This document shows positions 29,101-54,347 of a stretch of DNA of 64,000 nucleotides, in pieces. Under the pieces are notes generated by a model. That model was not told where the DNA came from. It saw only the letters and a program-made list of their open reading frames with translations, and did not search any database. Every line of letters begins with the position of its first letter. Positions within the stretch are counted from its first letter, which is position 1. Both the position numbers and the translations under genes were made by a program. The stretch comes from Haliotis rufescens (lineage: Eukaryota): positions 3,410,001 through 3,474,000 of the forward strand of contig NW_025964057.1 in assembly GCF_023055435.1 (NCBI RefSeq), given 5' to 3'.

Positions 29101-32100
29101 TGTTACTGACACAATGTTCTAAAGCTTGTTTGTCTGAAAAACTCAAAAGCTTCAACAACACGTCAACAGTTGTTGTTCATGATTTAAAACTGATTATTCA
29201 AACTAATGGATTTTTTTTTTTTGTTATGCAGTTAAATTACAAGTCATTACTTTTGGCTCCTTACATTTTGTCTTGGCTCTTTGAAATTCTATTTGGCTCC
29301 TTGAAAAAATAATTTAGGAGCCAAGTGGCTCCTTTGAATTTTTTGTAACTTTGTGGCCTGACCAAGGGACACACAGGGGCTACAGTAGTTTAATCTATGA
29401 AATATTTCGCTTTCGAACCATGACTGTATCTTGTTTTTCAACCTCGATTTTGAAAACTGATTTTTTTAAATAATCTTTTCTTTCTTAAATTGATGTGTGG
29501 AGAGGCCATTGTCAAAGAGGCATTGTTGTTGCAATTTACTTTGAAAGATACCATTTAATTGAAATTTGTTACAAATGATAAACCACTAATTCCTGATATG
29601 ATGCAGTCTATGACTGACAATTTAAATCATTCTTCATCACATATCCCGTAGTGTGAGAATCTTGTATTCTCTTCTTTGAAATGTCCAGCACTGGCAGAAC
29701 AGTGAGTGTCGTTTTCTTATCCTGAAGCTTTTTGGAGTGAAGTCCTATTGTGGCTAGTAATGCATTGTTTACCATGTACTAACGTTGAAAATGATTGTTT
29801 CAGATTTACAGCAGCTACGTGTCACCCCGGGTCAATGTGACCCATTTTGCAGGTAAGTCTCCATTTTCACAGATGTCGCGTAGCTTACTTCCTGTAGTCA
29901 TGGTGTAGGCAGGCTGTGTCTTTAAACATTTATCTGAAGCAAAGTTAAATATGATTCTTTTCGGAAAGTAGACTTTAGCCGTTATGTTGTTTAGTTTGTA
30001 CATACATGTAGTAACATTGTCAAGGAAGTACATGTGTTGGTTGGTAATGTCGACACAAAATGTTCATGTCCAGGAGTGCTGGTGTTTGTTAGCTTGTCTG
30101 TTGATGTAACATTGCTGATGGGGATGATATCCATCTAACAAGGAAGGTGTGGCAGATACACAAACACAGCATTTACATGATCAAGTGTCAGTAACCAGAT
30201 CCATCTTACAAGGAAGATGTGGCAGATACACAAACACAGCATTTACATGATCAACAGTCAGTAACCAGATCTTCAATCATACAGCATTCACCCATCTTCC
30301 CGAGGCAAGAGAGTTAACTGACTATAAAAGTCTAGTTTCCACCCTTGCCGAACTTTTAAAGTCAGTTAACTCTCTTGTCCCGGGAAGATGGCATTCACCC
30401 TGCTGGGTTTCCAGAGAGCAGGTGCCCAGTTTCCAAAACCTGACAGAAACTAGGTTACTATAACCCAGATGGCTTTGTGTCACCACACCCTGATGGTGTT
30501 CTATTGGCACTGATTTACCTTGCCCAGATAGATACTTTTGAATGTTTACACGCCAACGTGACCTTGCTGGAATATTGCTTACTGGGGAACTATAAACTAA
30601 CACTCACTCACTCATTTCACCTTAACATTTGGAACAAGGGGGTATCTTATTGGTTCAAGCCTTTACCCTCTGGAATAGTGCTGAAAACTTTTGTAAAACA
30701 ACTCACTCACTCATTATCTTGACCTTTCAGATGATGCAAGCAAACTGCTCTCTTTCATTTGTGAGGATGAGAATGAGCCGAGTGATGCGGAAACCATCAG
30801 TTCTGGAGACACTTCCAGCGTAGACAATGAGGCGGAAGACCGCTCCACTGACCCAGAGTCATACTCAGATGAGGTAGATGGTGACCTTGACCTCTGTACG
30901 CCCAAACCTAGATACCCTTGCAAACCAAAGCAGGATGTGTTACGTTTCAATGATAATGTTTGGTATTCTCTTGGAAGTGCCAGCAATCAGTCTCCAAGTT
31001 CTGGATCAGATTTGTCAGTTAGGAAAAACTTTGGATCTAGAAATTCTCGTTCACAAGAAGTATCAAGTAAAACTGAGGACAGTTTTAGCACAGAAGGAGA
31101 TCAGAAAGGTGCATGCGGAAACTTGTCGAAGAGTATTCTTGCACGATTCCACATGATGAAGGGTCAACCGGAGGACAGTGGGTTCGAGAGCGGTCCAGGG
31201 ATAAGAATGGGTACTGACGAAACAAGAGACAAGGCGCCTCTACGACTGTTTTGTCTGAATGAAGATAAGATAAACCGAGTGATGAGCTGGGTCAAAGATC
31301 AAGCAAATGAGAGTCGTCATCTTGGAGCTCGGACCCAGCCAGTGCGTTTGAAAGATGGGTTTGAATCCAACCTGCCAACCCAAGCAGATGACGTTCATCT
31401 TAAGTCACCGACAAAAATTAGAAAGAAAAGTGAGAAAGATCACAACTTTAACAATCAGTCATCTCTGCAGAATCCACCTCCATATCCTCTGACTAGACTA
31501 ATAGGTGATATGAACCAGACGTATACGGTTCCTCTGCCTAATGGGAACAACCCATACAGGATGCCATTCATGGATGTCAACCGGGGCACTTGTAAACAGC
31601 CTGACCCACCTCCTTGCAACCAACACAAGACCTGGTCGGCTGATGCTGGTCCGGTAGCTTCATCAAAGTCCACTAATGTTGGCAGAATATATGACTCATC
31701 TGAGCTGTTGGAAACCTCTCAAGAGCTCAAGACAGATGCCATGTGCCAAAGAAGGATTGTCCGAGCAAGAAAACGAACGTTCATTCCAATACAACCTTCT
31801 TACACCTCTGAGCAGCTTTTGGACTATTTGACCTCACCAATGCCACAAACAATTGTTGAGATATTGTCTCCAGCACGACCAAGTAGTTTGGAAGTTGAGG
31901 AGGAGACACTGCCATGTCTGAAGTCTCCGCCTCCATCTCTGCTTCCCCCGAGGACTGATGACAGTTTGTATGGATGGGAGCATTCACAGATTCAGCACAG
32001 TCCCTCTCATCACCGTCACACACTCATGAATCGGTTTAGCAAACAAGAAAATAACATTGGAAGAGCTGTTGATATCAACGGACACTACCCTATGAACAAT

Positions 32101-34395
32101 TTGAACAAAAATGATGCCACAGAAAGCAGTGGATCTTATGATGATGATGATGATGTTGTGATCACCAAGGTTAAGATAGAACCTGGACATGAAGCTGTCA
32201 CCTCCCATACACAGCCTTGGGAACATGCAGAACCAAGAGAACATCCTCAGCCTTGGGAACATGCAGAGCCAAGAGAAAATCCACAGCCTTGGGAACATGC
32301 AGAGCCAAGAGAACACCCACATCCTTGGGAACATGCACAGCCAAGAGGACATGCACTGGCAAGAGAACATGCACAGCCAAGAGGACATGCACAGCAAAAA
32401 GAACATGTCCCCTGTGAGATGAGGAACAAGTATTGGCTGGAGGACAGAGTGTCAGTGAAGGATGATGCAGTGACACTGTGTGAAGGATTTGGATACTCTA
32501 TCCCTGAATATGGCCACATTATGACTCCTGTACCTCAAGCCATCATTTCTCACAATGTTGGCAGGAACATAGGAACGCCAGTAACCATTGAACACAGCAA
32601 CAACAGAATCATGAGAACTCCTAATGGAACACTAAACTCTCTTGTAACCTATGGTGATGACCAAAACCTGGGAACACCCAAGTCCTTCATCTCTCAAGAT
32701 ACCAACAGAAGCCCTGGAAGAACACCTGATGCACTGCCAATAACCATCACCCATGGTGACAACAGAAATCCTGGAAGAACACCTGATGCACTGCCAATAA
32801 CCGTCACCCATATTGACAACAGAAATCCTGAAGGAACACCTGATGCACTGCCAATAACCGTCACCCATTGTGATAACAGAACCCTGAATGGAACACCCCA
32901 AACCTGCTTCTCTGCAGGATCTAGAAACAAGAAGCAGATCTTTGATCACTTGAAGCAAACAGGATCACAGTCTGATTCGAAGGTGATCACTGAGAAAGGG
33001 CTGAGTCGAGGGCGTGTGAAGGCAAGGAGGCAGCTTACAATGGAGCAGACAGGAAGGGGAGACCCCCAGCATCAGCTCCGCTCAGATGGGGGACAGGTGC
33101 TTGACAAGGAACAGCCTACTGCTAGACCCAGAAAATCACAAATGCAGCCCCGGGTGGTTGGGACAAATAGTGGGAGAAACAACACCAATAAGTTTTCTGT
33201 GGATGGAAAGAGTTATGAAACTCTTGCTAAGGTGTCATCTAAACACAGGCAGTCAGATGATGCTGGGGCCGATTTAACCTCAGCTGGTGAAGGGAGAGTA
33301 GGGAAGAATTACCAGGTAGGATGCTCTGCAGCCAGAGGTAGAAATGTAGCCTTACAGCTTAATGGAAGCGAACAGGAGACTGTGGGTAGGCATCGACATA
33401 GGTCTGATCGGATGGATGAAACACCAGCTTCACCTGGAAGGAAGGATGGGGCTGGCATGTGTAAAAATCCCAAAATAAGCTCCAGAAAATGTCAGCCAGA
33501 TAACCACGTGTTGTCTCCATTGCGAAATGGCAGGTGTTCAGCAGCTTCCAGTGTGGGTCTCTCCCCTTCATCACATCTGTCTCAGCTGCAGCTTAATAGC
33601 CCAACTCGGGCCAAGACTGAAAGGCCGAAGTCCGACAAGACATATAGCAAAGAACTGTTCAAAACTCCCAAGGGATCTCCCAGACCAAAATGTGCAAAAC
33701 ACCCTTCCCAGATCACCAATGACCTATCCTCAAAAACACCATATCAGTGCAAAGACTTCTCTCAGAACATTTTCAGTTTGAAAAATAAAACCTCCACTGA
33801 CAAATCTAACCACATGAGTCATAAGTCTTCTTCCTACAATGATGTATGCATATCTTCCAGAAATCATGTTTCATCTCGGTCTCCTTCTAAATCAGACTCA
33901 GACAATTTCAGACGATCCATGCCACAACTACCAACTTCCCCTCGTTTGCATCCCTCAGACAAACAGAAAACCTCATCAAACGAGTACCTGGTATCCAAGG
34001 AAAATTTCAACAAATCTCCTCATTCGAAAAATATATCTTCTAAAGCGTCGAAAAAGCCAGTTTTTCTTGTTCCAGACAGTTCCCACATCAGGTCACTGAA
34101 ATCTGTCAAATCATCCAAATCGATAACCTCTGAACTTAATTCACGCGCAGTTAACACAGGACTTAAGAAGATATCCCGGGACCAGTTCCGATCTGTGTAC
34201 AGGACAGCAGACAAGAACCCTCTGTGGACAAGCACCCCATCAAAAGCCAGGAGCATGCCTGTCCTCAACCAGACCATGTCCACGATTCTGCTTGGTGAGG
34301 ATGATGATGGTGCCTCGGATGAGGACAACGATGATGATGAGGTTGAGACAGTCAGTCCCTACTCCTTCAGGTCCGAAAGTGTCATTGGAATGTAG
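23091..34395 (+). CDS. Scm3/HJURP-like CENP-A chaperone candidate, 1340 aa; join(23091..23192,24745..24811,25663..25728,26336..26409,29804..29852,30731..34395)
   Basis: Six exons with GT-AG sites and phases 0/1/1/0/1 give 4023 nt in frame with the 1152-aa ORF. The spliced N-terminus ASLKRFETNFDMICSK|YGQAFPDDDIVSMKTGEIVNDK|GTIRKL matches the Scm3/HJURP CENP-A-binding pattern (helix..KY..F..D.I/V...TGEIV.D.G). The remainder is S/T/P/K-rich and low in complexity. Confidence 0.85.
24497..24722. repeat. 13-bp minisatellite (CTGACATGTGGGT) abutting the exon 2 acceptor
   Basis: About 17 units ending 22 nt before the AG at 24743-24744. Confidence 0.92.
24745..24811 (+). CDS. Scm3/HJURP-like exon 2 (YGQAFPDDDIVSMKTGEIVNDK-G)
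   Basis: Long pyrimidine tract ending TTTCAG|, donor AAG|GTATGT, 67 nt. Confidence 0.88.
25663..25728 (+). CDS. Scm3/HJURP-like exon 3 (GTIRKLKPVSFGGAKLAVTKRR)
   Basis: Acceptor TTGCAG|, donor GAG|GTACTG, 66 nt, phase 1->1. Confidence 0.8.
26336..26409 (+). CDS. Scm3/HJURP-like exon 4 (ADKFTKALSHSTIDLSQSQPVDAQS)
   Basis: Acceptor TTTCAG|, donor TCT|GTGAGT, 74 nt, phase 1->0. Confidence 0.78.
26728..29360. mobile_element. 2.6-kb nonautonomous hAT-like DNA transposon with 5-bp TSD and nested elements
   Basis: Perfect 14-bp TIR CAGGCCACAAAGTT/AACTTTGTGGCCTG; ACCAA duplicated at 26723-26727 and 29361-29365; subterminal GCGACTAAA and TGGCTCCT repeats. Confidence 0.8.
29804..29852 (+). CDS. Scm3/HJURP-like exon 5 (IYSSYVSPRVNVTHFA)
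   Basis: TACTAAC branch point at 29777, acceptor TTTCAG|, perfect donor CAG|GTAAGT, 49 nt, phase 0->1. Confidence 0.8.
30293..30390. mobile_element. 98-bp hairpin MITE with 9-bp TSD
   Basis: About 38-bp TIRs CATCTTCCCGAGGCAAGAGAGTTAACTGAC.. / ..GTCAGTTAACTCTCTTGTCCCGGGAAGATG; GCATTCACC duplicated at 30284-30292 and 30391-30399. Confidence 0.75.
30731..34395 (+). CDS. Scm3/HJURP-like giant terminal exon (contains the 1152-aa ORF)
   Basis: Acceptor CTTTCAG| at 30730, phase 1, open to TAG at 34393-34395. Non-repetitive codon-like sequence over 3.66 kb. Confidence 0.88.
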
Positions 34396-36047: not shown

Positions 36048-36309
36048 TCGTGAAGATCCGGGGTACAATAGGTCTTCAGCAGCCCATAGTTGCTGTAAAA
36101 GGCGACTATCCTTGTCGTAAGACGCGACTAACGTGATGGGGTGGTCAAACTCGCTGACTTGGTTGATGCATGTCATCGATCCCAATTGCGTGGATAGATG
36201 TTCATGATATTAATCACTGGATTGTCTGGTCCAGACTCGATTATTTACAGACCACCGTCATATAGCTGGAATATTGCTGAGTGCGGCGTAAAACAACAAA
36301 CCAACCAAA
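36048..36309 (+). mobile_element. SINE family B copy
   Basis: Full-length match to 62884-63137. Confidence 0.85.
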
Positions 36310-38689: not shown

Positions 38690-39700
38690 GATTGCATGCA
38701 GCTTGGCTCCATGCTCGACGGCCTTGTTTTTTGTGCCGCTCCTTACAAAACGTCATATTGCCAGGAGACGTCAATGGCGTAACACTGGGGTAATCATCGC
38801 TGGTCACGTGTCCTGTTTTCTAACGAGTCCCGATTCACTTTGCACTTCCTTGATAGGCGTGGTCGTGTATGGCGACGTCGAAATGAACGTCAAGCCAACG
38901 TCTGCGTGAGACATGACAGATTTGGAGTTGGATTGGTTATGGTGTGGAGTGGCATCACTATGACTGCATGACCGAACCCCACTCCATATTGTGCAAGGAA
39001 GGGTAACTGGACAGTACTATCGAGGACAACACAGACACCCTTTGCTGTTCCGTGTGGGTCGACGTTTTGTCTTTGAGGACGACTACGCCCGTGCTTACCT
39101 GCCGCGCACGAATTCAGAATACTCACTTTCAGAAGCACAACATCCTTAGAATGCCATGACCAGCAATGAGCAGCACAACATCCTTAGAATGCCATGACCA
39201 GCAATGAGCAGCACAACATCCTTAGAATGCCTTGACCAGCAATGAGCAGCACAACATCCTTAGAATGCCATGGCCAGCAATGAGCAGCACAACATCCTTA
39301 GAATGCCATGGCCAGCAATGAGCAGCACAACATCCTTAGAATGCCATGACCAGCAATGAGCAGCACAACATCCTTAGAATGCCTTGACCAGCAATGAGCA
39401 GCACAACATCCTTAGAATGCCATGGCCAGCAATGAGCAGCACAACATCCTTAGAATGCCATGGCCAGCAATGAGCAGCACAACATCCTTAGAATGCCATG
39501 GCCAGCAATGAGCCCAGACCTTTCCCCTCTTGAACACGATAGGGAGACGTGTGCGTCAACGTCATAGGCTGCCGACCACGTGGGCCGAACCTGGCGCTGC
39601 AAGAGGAGTGGGACAGACTCCCTTAAATCGCCATTGGGAGACTCATACGCAGTATGTCTCGTCGACTAAATGAATGTTTCGACTAATCGTCGCGGTATTA
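38690..39700 (+). pseudogene. Decayed Tc1/mariner (DD34E) transposase
   Basis: Frameshifted fragments VLFSNESRFTLHFLDRRGRVWRRRNER, HDRFGVGLVMVWSGIT, FEDDYARAY and WPAMSPDLSPLEH correspond to the Tc1 motifs FSDESRF, MVWGGI, QDDNARPH and WPxxSPDLNPIE. Confidence 0.85.
39134..39513. repeat. 38-bp minisatellite x10 inside the Tc1 transposase remnant
   Basis: Unit AGCACAACATCCTTAGAATGCCATG(A/G)CCAGCAATGAGC; 380 bp in total. Confidence 0.97.
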
Positions 39701-40271
39701 TGCACTACTGATCCAAAAAAGTCAACTTCGAAATTTCCCATTTTACCCCTATCGTCCTTCAAGATAGTTGGCGGTCATAATTCCTACTGTCATACTTGAC
39801 TTTATTCATGCCCTGTGATTACAGACTGAGATGACGACCGATGTGACGAATGCGCTTCCATGTATCGGTGCAGTCGATGTAGACTTGGTTACGCGTTGGA
39901 GAACGCACCTGTTACCGTCGTCTTTGGTGACCAGCGTCCGTCACCCGTTGACCGTCTCACACCTGCGGCCGCACTCCAAACAATTTGTCGCCTTGCAGAG
40001 GCGCGTGTACACATGGGTTTCTACAATATTTAGTGTTTTTTGTATAGAGTTCATGTATGGTATTACGCCGTTTAAATGACTATTCAAGGTATGTCACTGG
40101 TAACTGTTCGAATCTGGACCAGGATAACCAGTGGTCGATAGTGTGAACACCGATTCGGGTCGTGGGATTTGGGTAGACACAGTCTACCAGGTCACAGCTG
40201 GTCTACTGAAGGGGCACCTCATTCCACTACCCATACCCGGGAGCCAGTGTGTCTCATGTCTGGAACTAGGT

Positions 40272-40625: not shown

Positions 40626-42091
40626 CTGGAACTAGGTCATGGCGGACCGTCCCGGGGTGCAGTGAATACATCACACTATATACAGTCGAGTAGGCGTTAT
40701 ATAGTCCACCATGGCATTGCAGATTGGTGAATATGAGGTATCAATTTTCCATTTGGTACCTTTAAATCTCGCACTTGCACACAAAAACGTATGTATGAAT
40801 ATATCGGTAGCTATCATGTCGATCCATACAAAATGGCTGCCGATAACCCATCCAAACTGTATCCGATCGATATCAGAACATTATCGGATGTTTTGGGCGA
40901 CGATTTTGACGTCCTAGACGTAACTGGTGTGATGGTGACACTGTCAGCTCTTTCTGTGAATGGGTGTATTGTTAAATGGATGTCCAGATCCGGGGTAGAA
41001 TAGGTCTACAGCAACCCATGATTGTCGTAAGAGATCGGGTGGTCAGGCTCGCTGATCTGGCTTGTGCATGTCATCGTATCCCAATTGCGTGGATCGATGC
41101 TCATGATGTCAATCACTGGATTGTCTGGTCCAGAGTCGGCATTTAGCTGGAATATTGCTGAGCGCGGCGTTTAACAACAAACGAACAAACAAACATCAAA
41201 CTGTATGGTCGGTGAGCGTACAACACGTCTCCTCTTGTACCCTGTGTATATGCACTTCTCACGACTTCTTTTATAAGTCCAGACTCGATTATTATCAGAC
41301 CGCCGTCATATAGCTGGAATATTGCTGAGTGCGGCGTTAAACAACAAACAAAAACCTGTTTGCCTGGCATGTATCCGTGTTTACTGTGGTGGCAGAATTG
41401 AGACACATATACCTACTGCGATGTAAACTATGGTCCACAGCTGACGTATTGAGGTCACACGTGCACTGGCACACTCTACACCGCTGTTGTCAACAACAGG
41501 GGGAACCAGTCGTAAACTGGGACAACAAGAAGTAGCGAGCAGGATGTACCAAAACAACGTTTCTTCATTAAAAATACAAAACAAATATATATTGGTATGT
41601 ACAGATGTGGAGGGTAGGGGACCGGGATTGTTGGATGGGTTAGATACAAAATATTTGAAAAAAATGCCTTAGGTCTTACAAAGTACATCAGTTCACTGGA
41701 CATGCTGTATACCCTAAAAATGTAGTGAAAAAAGATGTGTTCTTTAAAAAAAATGCACGACGTTATGCTGCAGGTACACGGTCGACAACCACTGGTGTAT
41801 ACATGATCAACAGGGTGGTAAAGTAATTCACGGTGGGCCTATCCAGGAGAGGACGGTTTGATGTCCCCTCTGTGTGGCCGTGTGCCCTGATGGGCGAACG
41901 CACTGACCACTAGGCCACCTCCCGCCCCAGTAGACACTGGTTGCGCAATGTCCCACTGACAGTCCCCTATGCTGCATCAACAAGATGATTTGAAGTGATG
42001 TTTCCGGTACATGTATCGCGCATTGGAAAACTGTTTACGACACAATTCCACGAACTGCAGTGACATGACGTGACAGGCGGAGGTCAGGGGG

Positions 42092-42099
42092 TATATATA
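42092..42099 (+). promoter_or_regulatory. TATA box of the secreted Cys-rich gene
   Basis: GC-flanked TATATATA about 44 nt upstream of the ATG; TGACGT(G) CRE-like site at about 42067. Confidence 0.55.
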
Positions 42100-42135: not shown

Positions 42136-45100
42136 ATGTCGAACACTGTGTTGCTAGCACTGACTCTCTGCCTCGTCGTATCCTTAACGTCGGGGTTCCT
42201 CTTCAACAACAGTGAGTATAATGTGCATGTTATAGCGTGTGTATGTTATAGCGTGTGTATGTTATATGTGCATGTTATAGCGTGTGTATGTTATATGTGT
42301 ATGTTATATATGTATGTTTTTTTAAGAATTGACATTCACTTTGTGTGAGGGCCAAGCTCCGACGTTCATACCGTTCATACTCCAGTGAACTCACACAAAG
42401 TGAAAGTCAATTCTTATAATTGTTTATCACAATTTCTTACCTCAAAGGATGTAGGCCAAGATCTATACACAATTTTATTTAGTACGTGTGACTTAATTGT
42501 ATTACATTTACATCAATTACAAGACGTCATAATGGTCGACACGATAAACATTACGGGGGAGATTTGGGGAGTTGCTACTGAACCCATGGCGGTAACATGT
42601 TTTGGTCACCATTGATCAACTGGCCGATCAGTGAGAGGTGATTAAAGATGTGTCAAATAGACACGAAGGTAAACTCATATATGGCTGTAGACTAACATCT
42701 AGTCTCTGAAATGAACATATCGTACAGAAAAAAAACAGTTGTTCAGTTATCTTAATAAAAATATAATAAAAAAGAGCCCAGTGACTCTCTTCATTTTCAC
42801 TGCAGTGATCTAGACTTGCCAGACTTGCATTGGCTGTATTTGATATATATTTGTATCAGGGTCTGTAAGACAGACTAATATGGCTGTAGACAGTCACTGC
42901 CAACCTAGACACGGATCGAGTCGATACAACCACAGTTTGGATGTGCATTTCTTCGTTTTGTTCACAAGGATGGGTCGTAGCGAGGATATTCGTGAACGAT
43001 CGTGCAGTGAAACTCTGACGTTTCTCACTGTATACTAAAACGCTGAGTTCAAGATTAAAGCGTCTACATGATCAGAAAGAACGCTTCTGTATTTATTTGT
43101 GCTAGAGAATTCCCAGGGGGCCCCCAAGAATGTGGAAGTTGTCCGTCAGTGATTACGTCATTTCAAGAACACGGTCTCGTGAAAAACGTATGAACGTCAA
43201 ATTGAACGTCAGTTTCGCGGTCATGTGACCGACCTCTCGTCCAATGGAAAAGTTGTGTATCGTGTAAACTTCAAATAAACAAAATATTTAATATATGTTA
43301 TATCATGAGTATGTTATATTATATACGTGTATGTGGTATATCATATGTATGTTTAGACCATGTATATGTTGTATCATATGTATGTTATATCATGTGTATT
43401 TTAAATCAAGTGTATGTTATATCATTTATTTGTTATATCAAGTGTATGTTATATCATGTGCATGTTAAATGATAAGTCAAATACCCCAATGTGATTTGTC
43501 AGCGCGAGGTCAGATACCAAATGTACGTTAGCCAATGTCACTCAAACACACAACTCTATTTAATAAACGAATTAAGAATAAACCTTATGTGTGCGCTTTT
43601 ACAATACCAATGCCATACAACATTGTATCCCAGCTTGATCGCATGGGGCCAACGATGGAGAAAGTTTGGGGATGGCAATAGTTGCCACAAATGCTGAAAC
43701 AATGCCCCTATATGGCTGAAACAATGTCGCTATATGGCTGAAACAATGCCTCTATATGGCTGAAACAATGTTGCCATATGGCTGAAACAATGCCGCTATA
43801 TGGCTGAATCAATCCCTCTGTATGGCTAAAACAATACCCGTATATGGCTGAAACAGTGCCCCTATATGGCTGAAACAATGCCCCTATATGGCTGAAATAA
43901 TGCCCCTATATGGCTGAAACAATGTCGCCATATGGCTGAAACAATGCCCCTATATGGCTGAAACAATGTCGCCATATGTCTGAAACAATGCCCCTATATG
44001 GCTGAAACAATGTCGCCATATGGCTGAAAAAATGCCGCTATTTGGCTGAAACAATGTCGCTATATGGCTGAAATAATGCCCCTATATGGCTGAAACAATG
44101 TCGCCATATGTCTGAAACAATGCCGCTATATGGCTGAAACAATTTCGCCATATGGCTGAAACAATGTCGCTCTTATGGCTGAAACAATGCCTCTGTATGG
44201 CTGAAACAATGCCCCTAAATGGCTGAAACAATGCCCCTTTTGGGCCGAAACAATGTCGCTATATGGCTGAAACAATGTCGCTATATGGCTGAAACAATGC
44301 CCCTATATGGCTGAAACAATGTCGCTATATGGCTGAAACAATGTCCCTATATGGTCGAAACAATGTCCCTATATGGCTGAAACAATGCCCCTATATGGCT
44401 GAAATAATGCCCCTATATGGTCGAAACAATGTCCCTATATGGCCGAAACAATGTCGCTATATGGCTGAAACAATGTCGCTATATGGCTGAAACAATGTCG
44501 CTGTATGGTCGAAACAATGTCCCTATATGGCTGAAACAATGTCCCTATATGGTCGAAACAATGTCCCTATATGGCTGAAACAATGTCGCTATATGGCTGA
44601 AACAATGCCCCTATATGGCTGAAATAATGCCCCTATATGGTCGAAACAATGTCGCTATATGGCCGAAACAATGTCGCTATATGGCTGGAACAATGCCCCT
44701 ATATGCCTGAAATAATGCCCCTATATGGTCGAAACAATGTCGCTATATGGCCGAAACAATGTCGCTATATGGCTGAAACAATGCCCCTATATGGCTGAAA
44801 TAATGCCCCTATATGGTCGAAACAATGTCGCTATATGGCCGAAACAATGTCGCTATATGGCTGAAACAATGCCCCTATATGGCTGAAATAATGCCCCTAT
44901 ATGGTCGAAACAATGTCCCTATATGGCCGAAACAATGTCGCTATATGGCCGAAACAATGTCGCTATATGGCTGAAACAATGCCCCTATATGGCTGAAACA
45001 ATGTCGCTATATGGCTGAAACAATGTCGCTGTATGGTCGAAACAATGTCCCTATATGGCCGAAACAATGTCCCTATATGGCTGAAACAATGTCCCTATAT

Positions 45101-47035
45101 GGCTGAAACAATGTCGCTATATGGCTGAAACAATGTCCCTATATGGCTGAAACAATGTCCCTATATGGCTGAAACAATGTCCCTATATGGCTGAAACAAT
45201 GCCCCTATATGGCTGAAACAATGCCCCTATATGGTCGAAACAATGTCGCCATATGGCTGAAACAGTGCCCCTATATGGCTGAAATAATGCCCCTATATGG
45301 TCGAAACAATGTCCCTATATGGTCGAAACAATGTCCCTATATGGCCGAAACAATGTCGCTATATGGCTGAAACAATGTCCCTATATGGCTGAAACAATGT
45401 CCCTATATGGCTGAAACAATGTCCCTATATGGCTGAAACAGTGCCCCTATATGGCTGAAACAATGCCCCTATATGGTCGAAACAATGTCGCTATATGGCT
45501 GAAACAATGCCCCTATATGGCTGAAACAATGTCCCTATATGGCTGAAACAGTGCCCCTATATGGCTGAAACAATGTCCCTATATGGCTGAAACAATGTCC
45601 CTATATGGCTGAAATAATGCCCCTATATGGTCGAAACAATGTCCCTATATGGCTGAAACAATGTCGCTATATGGCTGAAACAATGTCGCTATATGGCCGA
45701 AACAATGTCGCTATATGGCTGAAACAATGTCGCTGTATGGCTGAAACAATGTCGCTATATGGCTGAAACAATGTTGAAGCGGTTGTACCATTTTATTTGA
45801 CTTACTTCTCTGACCAATTGTGGCGGGTACAACAGTGATGGTTTTCATGTTTACAGACTGTGGCCGGGGATGTCGATTTTGCACGGGACAGTTGGGGTGT
45901 ACTAGCTGTGAAGCTCAGTTTTGTTTGAAGCGTGTTAACAGGTAACCACCACAAAAGTACATCCCCACACTCCCATAACTGAGGACTCACAGACGCACAA
46001 CATGATTAAACATGCTTGTATGAGCGCTAAAAAATCAATTTCATCAAGAAGCCATAAGATAAACCTGAATCAAATTCTTATATTTTACGTACGCTTTATT
46101 CAATGTGTTCTGTTAATACTTGCTGTGACGTTGTCATGTTGTTGAATGAGTTCTACACTGATAAATGCCATTCGCTGTTGTTTTTTCGTCAGTATACAAA
46201 CACAATTTATCAAATGATTGACTATGGATTGTTTTTGGTTCATTGAGGTGAATGAATCGAAAAACCGATGTGCAAACTGTGTGAATCCCGTCATGTAATT
46301 ATATATTATTTCCTGTAGGTTTGGCGTGTGCTTAAGGGGCTGTGGTGTCGGGGCCTTCTGTAATCCCGTCGGCTACTGTAACGGTAAGTCCATATGTTTG
46401 TAATACTTAGTCTCTAAATCTATTGTATAAGTTTTCTTTTGGTGACTAAACGTTTTGAAATAGAGACAAAACTAAAAGAAAATATGTTATCGTAGCCTTG
46501 TATGAAATGTTTTGGAGTTTTGTTTGTTCAATTATAGAAGTAGTCGTGAGAAGTACATATACACAGGGTACAAACAGGGGGGACGTGTTGTACGTTCGCC
46601 GACCATTCAGTTTGATGTTTGTTTGTTTGTTCGTTTGTTGTTTAACGCCGCACTCAGAAATATTCCAGCTATATGACGGCGGTCTGAAAATAATCGAGTC
46701 TGGAAAAGACAATCCAGTGATTGACATCATGCGCATCAATCAACGCAGTTGGGATACGATGACATGCATCAACCAAGTCAGCGAGCCTGACCACCTGATC
46801 CCGTTAGTCGCCTTTACGGCAATCATGTGTTGCTGATGATCAATTCTAACCCGGATCTGCACGGGTCCCATTTAGTTTGAGTGTTGCCACTTTCACTTAT
46901 CGATGTGTGTTGTGTGTTGCAGACTGTACCGATTCCCACTGTGACGTGTGTACCGCCAGGAATCAGTGTACCCGCTGCAAGAGTGGGTACACGCTACAGA
47001 ACGGCCGCTACTGCTACCGCCGGTTCGGAGGTTGA
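42136..47035 (+). CDS. Small secreted R-spondin-like furin-type Cys-rich protein, 112 aa; join(42136..42211,45857..45941,46319..46383,46923..47035)
   Basis: Signal peptide MSNTVLLALTLCLVVSLTSG. Four exons with GT-AG sites and phases 1/2/1 total 339 nt. Mature part has 16 Cys: CGRGCRFCTGQLGCTSCEAQFCLKRVNRFGVCLRGCGVGAFCNPVGYCNDCTDSHCDVCTARNQCTRCKSGYTLQNGRYCYRRFGG. Confidence 0.85.
43690..45775. repeat. 21-bp minisatellite (ATATGGCTGAAACAATGCCCCT-type) in intron 1 of the secreted gene
   Basis: About 95-100 units with variants GTCGCT/GTCCCT/GCCCCT. Confidence 0.95.
46616..46868 (-). mobile_element. SINE family B copy in intron 3 of the secreted gene
   Basis: Reverse-complement match. Confidence 0.85.
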
Positions 47036-47340
47036 TCACGTGGGGAGCCACGCCCATCTCCACCCAGGCACTCAACTCAGCTCTACCCTGCTTCTTGTAG
47101 GGGGTGACATGCGCTCAGCCCCACCGTCAATTGTCCCAGGATTGTTCTGTTGTCATGCCGGTGGAAGTGGAAATCTATGTCAATTCTGTCTTTATATGTT
47201 ATTAAATGTTTTACCATCATATATATTTACTTGTTTTTTTTTGTAGTTAGACGCAAAGCTGTTTAATAAGTCCATAAATGGAAACGGCTGCACGTCATTG
47301 CCTGGACTAGAGAGTTTGGACGGCCTTTTGGCACCCACAC

Positions 47341-47388: not shown

Positions 47389-47573
47389 NNNNNNNNNNNN
47401 NNNNNNNNNNNNNNNNNNNNNNNNNNNNNNNNNNNNNNNNNNNNNNNNNNNNNNNNNNNNNNNNNNNNNNNNNNNNNNNNNNNNNNNNNNNNNNNNNNNN
47501 NNNNNNNNNNNNNNNNNNNNNNNNNNNNNNNNNNNNNNNNNNNNNNNNNNNNNNNNNNNNNNNNNNNNNNNNN
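47389..47573. other. Assembly gap after a (TAG/TGG)n microsatellite
   Basis: Run of N. Confidence 1.
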
Positions 47574-50137: not shown

Positions 50138-51870
50138 CGCTCTCTCTCTCGCTGTCTCTCTTGCTGTCTCTCTAACTCTCTCTCACTCTCTCACTCCCTG
50201 TCTCTCTCCCTGTCTCTCTCACTCTCTCTCTGTGTCTCTCTCACTCCCTGTCTCTCTCACTCTCTCTCCCTGTCTCTCTAACTCTCTCTCACTCTCTCTC
50301 ACTCTCTCTCTCCCTGTCTCTCTCACTCTCTCTCCCAGTCTCTCTCACTCTCTCTCTCCCTGTCTCTCTCACTCTCTCTCCCTGTCTCTCTCACTCTCTC
50401 TCTCTCTGTCTCTCTCACCGTCTCTCTCTCTCTCTCTCCCTGTCTCTCTACTCTCTCTGTGTGTCTCTCACTATCTCTCTCCATGTCTCTCTCACTCTCT
50501 CCCTGTCTCTCTCACTCCCTGTCTCTCTCTCTCACTGTCTCTCTCACTCCCTGTCTCTCTCACTCTCTCCCTGTCTCTCTCACTGTCTCTCACTCTCTCT
50601 CCCTGTCTCTCTCACTCCCTGTCTCTCTCACTCTCTCCCTGTCTCTCTCAATGTCTCTCACTGTCTCTCTCCCTGTCTCTCTCACTCTCTCTCCCTGTCT
50701 CTCTCACTCTCTCTCACTCCCTGTCTCTCTCACTCTCACTCCTTGTCTCTCTCACTCTCTCTCCCTGTCTCTCTCACTCTCTCTGTGTGTCTCTCTCACT
50801 CTCACTCCCTGTCTCTCTCACTCTCTCTCCCTGTCTGTCTCACTCTCTCTCCCAGTCTCTCTCACTCTCTCTCACTCCCTGTCTCTCTCACTCTCACTCC
50901 CTGTCACTCTCTCTCACTCTCTCTCCCTGTCTCTCTCACTCTCTCTCTGTGTCTTTCTCACTCTCTCTCCCTGTCTCTCTCACTGTCACTCCCTGTCTCT
51001 CTCACTCTCTCTCTCTCCCTGTCTCTCTCACTCTCACTCCCTGTCTCTCTCACTCTCTCTCTCTCTCCGTCTCTCTCACTCTCACTCCCTGTCTCTCTCA
51101 CTCTCTCTGTGTGTCTCTCTCACTCTCTCTCCCTGTCTCTCTCACTCTCTCTCCCTGTCTCTCTGACTCTCTCTGTGTGTCTTTCTCACTCTCTCTCTCC
51201 CTGTCTGTCTCACTCTCTCTCCCAGTCTCTCTCACTCTCTCTCACTCCCTGTCTCTCTCACTCTCACTCCCTGTCACTCTCTCTCACTCTCTCTCCCTGT
51301 CTCTCTCACTCTCTCTGTGTGTCTCTCTCACTCTCTCTCCCTGTCTCTCTCACTCTCTCTCCCTGTCTTTCTGACTCTATCTGTGTGTCTTTCTCACTCT
51401 CTCTCCCTGTCTGTCTCACTCTCTCTCCCAGTCTCTCTCACTCTCTCTCACTCCCTGTCTCTCTCACTCTCACTCCCTGTCACTCTCTCTCACTCTCTCT
51501 CCCTGTCTCTCTCACTCTGTCTCTGTGTCTTTCTCACTCTCACTCCCTGTCTCTCTCCCTGTCTCTCTCACTCTCACTCCCTGTCTCTCTCACTCTCTCT
51601 GTGTGTCTCTCTCACTCCCTGTCTCTCTCACTCTCTCTGTGTGTCTCTCTCACTCTCACTCCTTGTCTCTCTCACTTTCTCTCTATCTCCCGGTCTCTCT
51701 CTCCCTGTCTCTCTCACTCCCTATTTGTCGCTCTCTCCCTGTCTCTCTCTCACCCCGTTTGTCTCTCACTCTCTCTCTCTCTCCCTGTATGTCTCACTCT
51801 CTCCATCCCTCTCTCTCTCTCTCTCTCTCTTACTCTCTCAACCTCTCCCCGTGTCTGTCTGTCTGTCTTT
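50138..51870. repeat. Compound CT-rich microsatellite (CTCTCTCA/CCCTGT)
   Basis: 1.7-kb polypyrimidine tract. Confidence 0.97.
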
Positions 51871-52227
51871 ATGACTCTCTTGTTGAGATTGCCCTTGCCC
51901 CATGACACAGCAGGTAGTAAGGTTTGACTGAGTGGAATGTTCAATCATGCGCAGTTGATATGTCGTTGTCTCATATTTTCAGGGACTACATGTGTGTATT
52001 TACATACACCGACCAATCCACAGATTTTTTTGTTTTATTGCTTTGTATTTTCAAGTGATTTATACTGCCCGAGTTCTGAGGCGGGTGTAACGATTTGTAA
52101 TGTACTCATTGGTGCAGATGTACTCGTACGTACCGAAGATAGTGGTACACCTGTTTCGACCTGGCCAAAATATGGATCACTGGATGAATCTGACCTATAA
52201 AGATACAGTCCACGACGGGCGTCAATC

Positions 52228-54347
52228 ACCCGGTTTCATCTTGACATGGACGCAGCTCATCTAGAGTTTAAACCACCCGGTGTCATCTCGACATGGACGC
52301 AGCTCATCTAGAGTTTAAACCAGCCGTGTCATCTCGACATCGACACAGCTCATCTAGAGTTTAAACCAGCCGTGTCATCTCGACATCGACGCAGCTCAGC
52401 TAGAGTTTAAACCACCCGTTGTCATCTTGACATGGACGCAACTTATCTAGAGTTTAAACCACCCGGTGTCATTTCGACATGGACGCAGCTCAGCTAGAGT
52501 TTAAACCATCCGCTGTCATCTCGACATCGACGCAGCTCATCTAGAGTTTAAACCATCTGCTGTCATCTTGACATGGACGCAACTCATCTAGAGTTCAAAC
52601 CATCCGCTGTCATCTCGACATGGACGCAGCTCAACTAGAGTTTAAACCATCCGCTGTCATCTCGACATGGACGCAGCTCATCTAGAGTTCAAACCATCCG
52701 CTGTCATCTCGACATGGACGCAGCTCATCTAGAGTTCAAACCATCCGCTGTCATCTCGACATGGACGCAGCTCAGCTAGAGTTTAAACCACCCGGTGTCA
52801 TCTTGACATGGACGCAGCTCATCTAGAGTTTAAACCACCCGGTGTCATTTCGACATGGACGCAGCTCAGCTAGAGTTTAAACCACCCGTTGTCATCTTGA
52901 CATGGACGCAGCTCATCTAGAGTTTAAACCACCCAGTGTCATTTCGACATGGACGCAGCTCAGCTAGAGTTTAAACCACCCAGTGTCATTTCGACATGGA
53001 CGCAGCTCATCTAGAGTTTAAACCACCCAGTGTCATCTCGACATGGACGCAGCTCAACTAGAGTTTAAACCATCTGCTGTCATCTTGACATGGACGCAGC
53101 TCAGCTAGAGTTTAAACCACCCAGTGTCATCTTGACATGGACGCAGCTCAACTAGAGTTTAAACCATCTGCTGTCATCTCGACATGGACGGAGCTCAGCT
53201 AGAGTTTAAACCATCCGCTGTCATCTCGACATCGACGCAGCTCATCTAGAGTTTAAACCATCTGCTGTCATCTCGACATGGACGCAGCTCATCTAGAGTT
53301 CAAACCATCCGCTGTCATCTCGACATGGACGCAGCTCAACTAGAGTTTAAACCATCCGCTGTCATCTCGACATGGACGCAGCTCATCTAGAGTTCAAACC
53401 ATCCGCTGTCATCTCGATATGGACGCAGCTCATCTAGAGTTTAAACCATCTGCTGTCATCTCGACATTGACGCAGCTCAGCTAGAGTTTAAACCACTCAG
53501 TGTCATCTTGACATGGACGCAGCTCAGCTAGAGTTTAAACCACCCGATGTCATTTCGACATGGACGCAGCTCATCTAGAGTTTAAACTACCCAGTGTCAT
53601 CTGGACATGGACGCAGCTCAGCTAGAGTTTAAACCACCCGGTGTCATCTTGACATGGACGCAGCTCATCTAGAGTTTAAACCACCCAGTGTCATCTCGAC
53701 ATGGACGCAGCTCAACTAGAGTTTAAACCATCTGCTGTCATCTCGACATGGACGCAGCTCAGCTAGAGTTTAAACCACCCAGTGTCATCTCGACATGGAC
53801 GCAGCTCAACTAGAGTTTAAACCATCTGCTGTCATCTCGACATGGACGCAGCTCAGCTAGAGTTTAAACCATCTGCTGTCATCTTGACATGGACACAGCT
53901 CATCTAGAGTTTAAACCACCCAGTGTCATCTCGACATGGACGCAGCTCAGCTAGAGTTTAAACCACCCGGTGTCATCTCGACATGGACGCAGCTCAACTA
54001 GAGTTTAAACCACCCGGTGTCATCTCGACATGGACGCAGCTCAGCTAGAGTTTAAACCACCCGGTGTCATCTCGACATTGACGCAGCTCAACTAGAGTTT
54101 AAACCACCCGGTGTCATCTCGACATGGACGCAGCTCAGCTAGAGTTTAAACCACCCGGTGTCATCTCGACATGGACGCAGCTCAACTAGAGTTTAAACCG
54201 CCCGGTGTCATATCGACATGGACGCAGCTCATCTAGAGTTTAAACCACCCGCTGTCATCTCGACATGGACGCAGCTCAGCTAGAGTTTAAACCATCCGCT
54301 GTCATCTCGACATCGACGCAGCTCAGCTAGAGTTTAAACCACCCAGT
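52228..54347. repeat. 47-bp minisatellite (GTCATCTCGACATGGACGCAGCTCATCTAGAGTTTAAACCACCCGGT)
   Basis: About 45 tandem units. Confidence 0.97.

What the first reader, a model, noticed from the sequence alone, without database searches (positions are those of the whole stretch)
42136..47035. Minimal R-spondin-like secreted protein: furin modules only, no TSP1 or basic tail
Seen: signal peptide plus a 16-Cys mature peptide; exons 2-4 are absent from the ORF track in the coding frame. It aligns well to RSPO1 Fu1-Fu2 as I recall it: CxxGCxxC..GCxxC, GVCLxxC and HCxxCxxxNxCTxCKxGxxLxxGR. Fourteen Cys match the RSPO pattern, the last Fu2 pair is missing, and two extra Cys could form a new disulfide. 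The phase-1 intron falls in the residue just before the first Fu2 Cys (C-N-D|-C), which I recall is also the RSPO1 Fu1/Fu2 exon boundary. The LxR of the ZNRF3/RNF43-binding hairpin is kept (LKRVNRFG, loop shortened), but the two LGR-clamping Phe of Fu2 are replaced by T and Q. Established: R-spondins are known mainly from deuterostomes. Inference: an LGR-independent RSPO relative or a repurposed furin-repeat secreted peptide. It is cationic and TATA-driven, so a defence or mucus role is also plausible.
Basis: partly seen in the sequence, partly recalled or inferred. Interest (0 to 1): 0.75.

Follow-up and report, generated by a model that had tools for sequence, protein, structure and literature searches.

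The report
Abalone short R-spondin-like secreted protein
This is a real, spliced abalone gene for a small secreted protein that looks like the front half of the Wnt booster R-spondin but has lost the parts needed to boost Wnt, and it belongs to a little-studied family of such short proteins found across molluscs.

Summary
The gene is real. Four exons (42136-42211, 45857-45941, 46319-46383, 46923-47035) give a 112-aa protein identical to RefSeq XP_046355242.1, 'R-spondin-1-like', Haliotis rufescens. Contigs of four public runs show the junctions and end at 47212-47219, so no TSP1 exon follows. It is not a lone oddity: chiton, mussel and scallop genomes encode similar signal-peptide + two-furin-repeat proteins without TSP1. 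It is not the snail's R-spondin: Lottia has a canonical one, and the R-spondin branch (97/96) excludes all 10 short proteins. The LGR-independent agonist idea fails: the ZNRF3-binding hairpin is four residues shorter, Gln71 is Arg, Asn51 is Leu, both LGR Phe are gone, and that signalling mode needs the missing TSP/basic tail. Descent from an R-spondin is likely but unproven: shared intron position, cysteine spacing and a Gly seen in 10 of 10 short proteins and 0 of 34 generic repeats; the fold match does not discriminate (control). Best reading: an R-spondin-derived, disulfide-stapled binding protein repurposed away from Wnt, perhaps for defence. New variant of a known kind.

The parts
42092..42099 (+). 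TATA-like box, 44 nt upstream of the ATG; use as promoter not shown
   Evidence: Sequence. One contig of run X1 has 573 nt 5' of exon 2, more than a start near this box would give.
42136..42211 (+). Exon 1 coding part: hydrophobic signal peptide (cleavage after Gly20 inferred) and mature N-terminus; phase-1 donor
   Evidence: hydropathy 2-3 over the N-terminus; helix 5-17 in the model; its last 30 nt are the loose end joined to exon 2 in runs X1 and X2.
43693..45774 (.). 22-bp tandem array (94.6 copies) filling most of intron 1; not coding
45857..45941 (+). Exon 2: first half of furin repeat 1 (Cys27-Cys48) and the shortened second hairpin; phase-2 donor inside Arg54. Fastest-changing exon
   Evidence: 7 of 29 residues differ from the H. 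cracherodii protein plus a 2-residue insertion, against 3 of 83 elsewhere, Fisher p = 0.003.
46319..46383 (+). Exon 3: second half of furin repeat 1 (Cys58-Cys74, with extra Cys68); phase-1 donor
   Evidence: joint in 3 of 4 runs on the 5' side, 4 of 4 on the 3' side.
46923..47035 (+). Exon 4 coding part: furin repeat 2 cut short after Cys106 (three of four RSPO disulfides possible), stop codon
   Evidence: PF15913 positions 57-86 of 102, E 3e-4.
47036..47219 (+). 3' UTR with ATTAAA at 47201-47206; transcript end
   Evidence: Contigs stop at 47212-47219, zero depth from 47236 in 4 of 4 runs.
39825..39930 (+). Decayed tandem copy of exon 4: same acceptor position, stop codon where the first Cys would be (39827), a frameshift near 39905, and the same early stop after the last Cys
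   Evidence: tblastn E 0.005; DNA score 96 against max 64, mean 37.6, sd 6.8 in 652 control stretches; limits. No copies of exons 1-3 found in the window.

Best explanation
A secreted, disulfide-stapled two-furin-repeat mini-protein of a molluscan family (chiton, mussel, scallop, abalone) that most likely arose by early duplication of an R-spondin gene and loss of the TSP1 and basic-tail exons, while the true R-spondin was kept. Shown: splicing, transcript end, family membership, loss of the receptor-binding residues. Inferred: after signal cleavage it folds as a ladder of beta-hairpins with about eight disulfides (the extra Cys48-Cys68 pair stapling repeat 1) and works as a stable, non-enzymatic binding protein outside the cell. 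It no longer bridges LGR and RNF43/ZNRF3. In abalone the cationic, fast-changing first repeat probably binds a variable anionic target such as microbial or mucus glycans. Odds of the steps: family member 0.9; R-spondin ancestry 0.6; not a Wnt agonist 0.85; defence or recognition as the actual job 0.35.
For: Family: the named, non-RSPO hits of the representative search are molluscan short proteins (4 of 25 hits), three more scallop proteins came with a profile; none of the 4 scanned has TSP1. Extra Cys pair present together in 8 of 10 and absent together in 2 of 10 short proteins. Mussel isoforms diverge exactly before the Arg four residues ahead of the Cys58 equivalent, where abalone has its phase-2 intron (inferred from proteins). 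Ancestry: Gly before the 4th Cys in 10 of 10 short and 9 of 9 RSPO first repeats, 0 of 34 generic repeats; Cys spacing 3-2-5 then 4-2-5 as in RSPO; intron before C97 equivalent; the four scallop hairpins have the exact RSPO length with Lys/Arg at R66, and one chiton protein keeps Arg66 and Met at the finger position. Not the RSPO itself: Lottia RSPO keeps S48, N51, R66, Q71, R87, F106 and TSP1; RSPO branch 97/96 excludes the short proteins; RSPO profile gives 136-154 bits to RSPOs and 18-41 to short proteins. Lost interfaces: against PMC3937510 and PMC3905715. Model: pLDDT 86-93 over residues 31-110, strands 48-52 and 55-59 with a two-residue turn. Recognition-type evolution: exon 2 divergence, a decayed tandem copy, exon depth in the thousands against 5-50 in introns in 3 of 4 runs.
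Against: The tree does not resolve the short proteins: not one clade in the free tree (4 changes), and AU tests neither reject nor show short-only (p 0.35) or short+RSPO (p 0.25) clades. A generic repeat scores 36.8 bits on the RSPO profile against 38.6 for this protein. The fold match is not specific: a generic repeat gets Z 11.0 to RSPO1 against Z 10.5 here, and a chiton relative matches PCSK6, PCSK5 and ciliate repeats as well as RSPO1 (TM 0.58-0.71). None of the 34 generic repeats is known to be a first repeat after a signal peptide, so the Gly could be a capping feature. No molluscan PCSK5 repeat was in the tree. Charge is not conserved in the family. No tissue, challenge or binding data; no dN/dS. 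The Cys48-Cys68 bond rests on co-occurrence in related sequences only.
Confidence: 0.55

Rival explanations
1. Same short secreted protein, but built independently from a generic PCSK5/6- or VSP-type furin-repeat pair; the R-spondin likeness is shared fold plus chance, and the RefSeq name is only a best-hit label.
For: Control fold Z 11.0; Atlas structure hits to PCSK5/6 and ciliate repeats equal RSPO; PF15913 scores 25.6-41.6 bits for the short proteins that hit it, like generic repeats (43-55) and far under RSPOs (110-154); RefSeq names two relatives 'PCSK5-like'; tree unresolved. Phase-1 introns between extracellular modules are common (own knowledge).
Against: Gly 10 of 10 against 0 of 34; RSPO-length hairpin with basic residue at R66 in 4 of 4 scallop proteins; signal-Fu1-Fu2 order with RSPO spacing; intron at the RSPO1 position.
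Confidence: 0.25
2. A signalling modulator with co-evolved partners: the family acts as one-armed decoys or ligands for molluscan RNF43/ZNRF3-like ligases, LGRs or another receptor, tuning true R-spondin signalling.
For: Scallop and one chiton member keep much of the long Fu1 hairpin; molluscs have a canonical RSPO to compete with; Fu1 alone binds ZNRF3 (PMC3905715).
Against: In the abalone protein the hairpin tip is deleted; N51 and Q71 are lost in 10 of 10 short proteins and F106/F110 in 10 of 10; fast change and wide charge range do not fit a conserved receptor.
Confidence: 0.13
3. One reading: an LGR-independent R-spondin that potentiates Wnt by clearing RNF43/ZNRF3.
For: Best sequence hits among solved structures are RSPO1/2 (13 of 13); Fu1-Fu2 fragments can signal (PMC3937510); an Arg lies in the hairpin and phmmer aligns it to R66; net positive charge might stand in for the basic tail.
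Against: LGR-independent signalling needs TSP/BR and an intact ZNRF3 site (PMC5800842); hairpin 4 residues short, Q71 to Arg, N51 to Leu, R87 deleted, F106/F110 replaced.
Confidence: 0.05
4. Annotation artefact or 5' fragment of a longer RSPO gene.
For: An assembly gap starts at 47389, close behind the gene.
Against: Junctions seen in RNA-type contigs, transcript ends before the gap in 4 of 4 runs; same stop in H. cracherodii, similar ends in a chiton protein and in the decayed copy.
Confidence: 0.02

Closest known systems
R-spondins RSPO1-4 and protostome RSPO (Lottia gigantea XP_009061034.1; Strigamia T1JBV6)
   Same: Signal peptide then two furin repeats; 14 aligned Cys with the same spacing; Gly before the 4th Cys; intron just before the C97 equivalent; 34-39% identity and Z 10.5, rmsd 2.1 over 83 residues to RSPO1.
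   Different: No TSP1, no basic tail, no C129-C142 pair; extra Cys pair; hairpin 4 residues shorter; N51, Q71, R87, F106, F110 lost; extra phase-2 intron inside Fu1 (human RSPO1 codes I32-I95 on one exon); lies outside the RSPO branch.
Short molluscan 'R-spondin-like' / 'PCSK5-like' RefSeq models (XP_071087908.1 black abalone; XP_064598051.1 and XP_064598601.1 chiton; VDI05555.1, XP_063423292.1 mussels; XP_060081439.1 and three more scallops)
   Same: Same signal + Fu1 + shortened Fu2 plan, no TSP1; 29-46% identity outside abalone; extra Cys pair in mussels and scallops.
   Different: Tails vary: none (abalone, chiton), Ser/Thr-rich (scallops, 23-29% S+T), a further Cys-rich block (mussels); charge from -12 to +9; hairpin length varies. 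Only automated names seen; no functional paper found.
Generic furin-like repeats (PCSK5/6 cysteine-rich region, ciliate/VSP-type proteins; PF15913, PF14843, PF03302)
   Same: Same hairpin-ladder fold and similar Pfam scores.
   Different: Those are mostly multi-repeat arrays or parts of larger proteins; none of 34 sampled repeats has the Gly before the 4th Cys.
Molluscan cysteine-rich antimicrobial peptides (defensins, myticins, macins; names recalled)
   Same: Small, secreted, cationic, Cys-rich, fast-changing.
   Different: Different fold and Cys pattern; no such family among the Pfam matches. Resemblance is of general properties only.

Membership tests
R-spondin family | Signal peptide followed by two furin-like repeats | tested here: met
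   Fu2 lacks its last Cys pair; PF15913 27.9 bits, just under the cut-off 28. Signal peptide judged by hydropathy, no dedicated predictor.
R-spondin family | TSP1 domain (definition in PMC3937510 and PMC12111769) | tested here: not met
   Stop at 47033-47035, transcript ends at 47212-47219; no TSP1 Pfam hit; no motif on the + strand.
R-spondin family | Basic C-terminal region | tested here: not met
   Protein ends 6 residues after Cys106.
R-spondin family | ZNRF3/RNF43 interface: S48, N51, R66, Q71 and the long second hairpin | tested here: not met
   Thr, Leu, gap or Arg51 depending on the aligner, Arg; 14 residues between the flanking Cys against 18.
R-spondin family | LGR interface: F106, F110, K59, R87 | tested here: not met
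   Thr, Gln, Gln, gap.
R-spondin family | Groups with RSPOs in a tree | tested here: inconclusive
   Outside the RSPO branch (97/96; 83/94 without six long rows); sister status not rejected (p 0.25), nor grouping with Lottia RSPO (p 0.15 and 0.10).
R-spondin family | Potentiates Wnt/beta-catenin signalling | not testable with these tools
   Needs a reporter assay.
Furin-like cysteine-rich repeat superfamily | Cys pattern and beta-hairpin ladder fold | tested here: met
   PF15913 E 2.9e-06; Z 10.5.
Short molluscan two-furin-repeat family (unnamed) | Signal + Fu1 + shortened Fu2 without TSP1, Gly before 4th Cys, no C129 | tested here: met
   10 of 10 members examined; monophyly itself inconclusive (p 0.35).
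Antimicrobial peptides | Kills or binds microbes; induced by challenge | not testable with these tools
   Only charge and size known.

The most novel reading that the evidence does not exclude
Molluscs carry an old, undescribed paralogue family of 'mini-spondins' cut from the R-spondin gene before chitons, bivalves and gastropods split. Members with the long hairpin (scallop, chiton) still bind RNF43/ZNRF3-like ligases as natural one-armed decoys of R-spondin signalling, while the abalone member has deleted the finger and become a fast-evolving cationic defence or recognition protein: a Wnt co-ligand scaffold recycled into an effector.
Probability: 0.15. Interest if true: 0.7.

Novelty: new variant of a known kind. 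Interest (0 to 1): 0.4.

Why it matters
What remains is a family that the one broad survey I read could not see, because it required a TSP1 domain and at least 156 residues (PMC12111769). If these proteins descend from R-spondin, they show that the Fu1-Fu2 unit was released as a stand-alone secreted module more than 500 million years ago (date from own knowledge), and the graded loss of the hairpin from scallop to abalone is a natural series for asking what invertebrate RSPO/RNF43/LGR modules bind. Practically, molluscan transcriptome papers that read 'R-spondin-1-like' as a Wnt or sex-determination gene may be looking at these proteins instead. A highly expressed cationic secreted protein of a farmed abalone is also a fair candidate for immune assays.

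Tried and rejected
No whole genome is held for this window, so the abalone's own canonical RSPO, RNF43/ZNRF3, LGRs and further paralogues were not searched; a complex prediction was not run because no partner sequence was on hand. Exon 1 and intron 1 were outside the laid stretch. Word-based search with the single protein found only the two abalone proteins (2 of 2 and 2 of 6 candidates). Atlas feature search gave nothing at 0.9 or more. Fold search as proof of RSPO identity: rejected by the control. Trees: 92-94 columns, unresolved for the short family; P0012 was left out (the retrieved sequence has no Cys-rich stretch where the hit was reported), as were P0006, P0017, P0021, P0025, P0034 and near-duplicates P0024, P0027, P0028, P0032, P0033. 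The metagenome locus scan had no conserved stretch to search with. No Rfam match in the window. No earlier findings of this scan. Literature: searches 'R-spondin + Haliotis' (10 papers), 'R-spondin-like + Mytilus' (0), 'R-spondin-1-like' with shellfish names (0 occurrences in the 25 listed of 10,775), 'R-spondin + lophotrochozoa + LGR' (5), 'furin-like ... abalone' (1) and searches showed no study of this family by title or abstract; most listed papers were not opened, and subscription journals are not covered. Passages on 'spondin' in PMC10475054 and PMC12189941 were unrelated. The supplement of PMC12111769 could not be read and may list molluscan sequences; PMC3439965 is not held.
Full report
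1. The observation. The window holds a four-exon gene on the + strand: 42136-42211, 45857-45941, 46319-46383 and 46923-47035, with GT..AG introns of phase 1, 2 and 1. The 339-nt CDS gives 112 residues: a hydrophobic N-terminus, then 16 Cys; residues 21-112 have pI 8.85. The product is identical to P0001, RefSeq XP_046355242.1 'R-spondin-1-like' of Haliotis rufescens; a 114-aa protein of H. cracherodii is 89-91% identical. I laid contigs of 4 of 23 listed runs, from 4 studies, on 45780-47330. The exon 2-3 joint appears in 3 of 4 runs and the exon 3-4 joint in 4 of 4. In 2 of 4 a listed loose end before exon 2 is the last 30 nt of exon 1. Pieces stop at 47212-47219 behind ATTAAA (47201), and depth is zero from 47236 in 4 of 4. 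So the stop codon lies in the last exon and no TSP1 exon follows, although an assembly gap opens at 47389. Exon depth is in the thousands against 5-50 in introns in three runs and about 30 in the fourth; the tool warns that contig depth is a poor measure of expression, and the RNA status of the runs is its guess. One X1 contig carries 573 nt before exon 2, so the 5' end may lie upstream of the TATA box at 42092; this is unresolved.

2. Relatives. A search of 1.84 billion representatives gave 25 hits at E <= 0.001: the protein itself, 4 short molluscan proteins, 10 R-spondins and 10 others, mostly unnamed multi-repeat proteins (names for 20 of them; P0022 and P0024 judged by sequence). A profile of six short proteins added three scallop proteins (8 hits of 641 candidates). 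The short set of 10 used below has 2 abalone, 2 chiton, 2 mussel and 4 scallop proteins. All have a signal-like N-terminus, Fu1 and a Fu2 without the C129 equivalent; none of the four scanned has TSP1. Tails differ: none, Ser/Thr-rich, or a further Cys-rich block. The extra Cys at the F61 and D85 positions occur together in 8 of 10 and are both missing in the 2 chiton proteins, which suggests a disulfide but is not independent of relatedness. Two mussel isoforms share a 137-residue end that begins at the Arg four residues before the Cys58 equivalent, where abalone has its phase-2 intron: probably a shared intron, inferred from proteins only. In the window, 39825-39930 is a decayed copy of exon 4 (score 96 against a maximum of 64 in 652 controls), with a stop at the first Cys, a frameshift and the same early end; the locus was once a tandem pair.

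3. Is it R-spondin? By sequence the only solved structures matched are RSPO1 and RSPO2 (13 of 13, best E 5e-10). The model (mean pLDDT 79, pTM 0.58) matches RSPO1 at Z 10.5, rmsd 2.1 over 83 residues, next family Z 3.3. The control undoes this as proof: an unnamed generic furin-repeat protein scores Z 11.0, rmsd 2.0 on the same chain, and a chiton relative matches PCSK6, PCSK5 and ciliate repeats (TM 0.58-0.71) as well as RSPO1 (0.63-0.66). A gastropod already has a canonical R-spondin: Lottia P0020 scores 112.9 bits on PF15913, has TSP1, and keeps S48, N51, R66, Q71, R87 and F106. The centipede protein P0007 groups with it; Pfam did not call its TSP1, though a Trp-x-x-Trp-x-x-Cys motif is visible and the genome paper reports an R-spondin orthologue (PMC4244043, passage). 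In a 32-row tree the 9 RSPOs form one side of a 97/96 branch without any short protein (83/94 after dropping six long rows). The short proteins are unresolved; AU tests reject none of four groupings (p 0.35, 0.25, 0.15, 0.10). Characters that point to R-spondin ancestry: Gly before the fourth Cys in 10 of 10 short and 9 of 9 RSPO first repeats against 0 of 34 generic repeats (these come from 10 proteins picked by likeness to the query); the spacing 3-2-5 then 4-2-5 in this protein; RSPO-length hairpins with Lys or Arg at R66 in 4 of 4 scallop proteins and Arg66 plus Met69 in one chiton protein; and the phase-1 intron before the C97 equivalent, matching human RSPO1 c.286+1, p.I32_I95del (PMC4195882, passages). 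Against: a generic repeat reaches 36.8 bits on an RSPO profile, this protein 38.6, true RSPOs 136-154. I put ancestry at about 0.6.

4. Could it signal like R-spondin? The ZNRF3 interface is S48, N51, R66 and Q71; the LGR interface is F106, F110, K59 and R87 (PMC3937510, passages). The long second hairpin carries the Met finger, and Q70R, R65W and N50R impair binding (PMC3905715, passages). Here the hairpin has 14 residues between its Cys instead of 18; the model shows strands 48-52 and 55-59 with a two-residue turn. Counting from either Cys, Arg54 sits at Q71 and Arg51 at L64, so the tip with R66 and the finger is what was deleted (inference); phmmer does align Arg51 to R66, MAFFT does not. 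N51 is Leu, F106 and F110 are Thr and Gln, R87 is gapped. LGR-independent signalling needs Fu1 and TSP/BR (PMC5800842, passages). Both known routes are therefore closed, unless molluscan partners have co-evolved, which I could not test.

5. Likely working. Shown: a spliced, polyadenylated message for a short protein of the furin-repeat fold. Inferred: secretion, cleavage near Gly20, seven RSPO-type disulfides (pattern recalled) plus Cys48-Cys68, giving a rigid, protease-resistant hairpin ladder with no catalytic site. Its job is most likely binding. In abalone the surface is cationic (+8, +9), and change between the two species clusters in exon 2 (7 of 29 residues plus an insertion, against 3 of 83; p 0.003, counts by hand, test; run X12 shows the same insertion). 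With tandem duplication and apparently high transcript levels this fits a defence or recognition protein, but relatives range from -12 to +4, so this is no family trait; odds about 0.35. Gamete recognition or a matrix role remain open.

6. What is known. RSPO genes with TSP1 are reported from Annelida, Brachiopoda and Mollusca (PMC12111769; abstract, methods and results read, discussion as passages, supplement not readable), which overturns the older deuterostome-only view (PMC3937510). That survey demanded PF19028 and at least 156 aa, so it excludes this protein. Nine literature searches on the family (and 59 for the intron) showed no study of the short forms; most hits were seen as listings only.

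7. Verdict. Observation confirmed; interpretation partly supported. Not a member of the R-spondin family by its definition (TSP1, basic tail and both interfaces fail), probably derived from it, and probably not working like it. New variant of a known kind; interest 0.4, rising to about 0.7 if the family proves to be R-spondin-derived decoys or effectors.

Noticed in passing
window 39825-39930 (+): Decayed tandem copy of exon 4, 2.2 kb upstream of the ATG; exons 1-3 of the copy not found in the window. A TATA-like run lies at about 38458.
   Followed up: partly
window 30697-34395 (+): A 1232-codon open frame, Ser-rich and low in complexity, probably one large exon of an upstream gene; no Pfam match.
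   Followed up: partly
window 41586-41640: A second TATA-like run at 41586; the 573-nt 5' extension of one X1 contig would start near 41639 if unspliced, hinting at a second start site or an upstream exon.
   Followed up: no
window 46612-46870 and similar copies near 36050, 37250, 41000, 55060, 56540: High-copy SINE-like interspersed repeat; thousands of contigs pile on the copy in intron 3. Family name not determined.
   Followed up: no
window 39134-39513, 43693-45774, 50140-51839, 52227-54344: Large tandem arrays (38, 22, 22/46 and 47 bp units) that create long spurious ORFs.
   Followed up: no
P0007 (Strigamia): A centipede R-spondin exists although PMC12111769 reports none in the arthropods it analysed; its TSP1 is missed by Pfam, which may explain the gap.
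   Followed up: partly
P0005 and P0018 (chiton): Both are listed with a longest contig of 25,057,479 bases, so they may be linked paralogues; one is mildly basic, the other strongly acidic.
   Followed up: no
P0003: An unnamed multi-repeat protein whose furin repeats also have long second hairpins, so a long hairpin alone is not unique to R-spondin.
   Followed up: partly
P0012: Reported as a hit at residues 524-583, but the retrieved 1752-aa bacterial sequence has no Cys-rich stretch there; likely a mismatch, left out.
   Followed up: no
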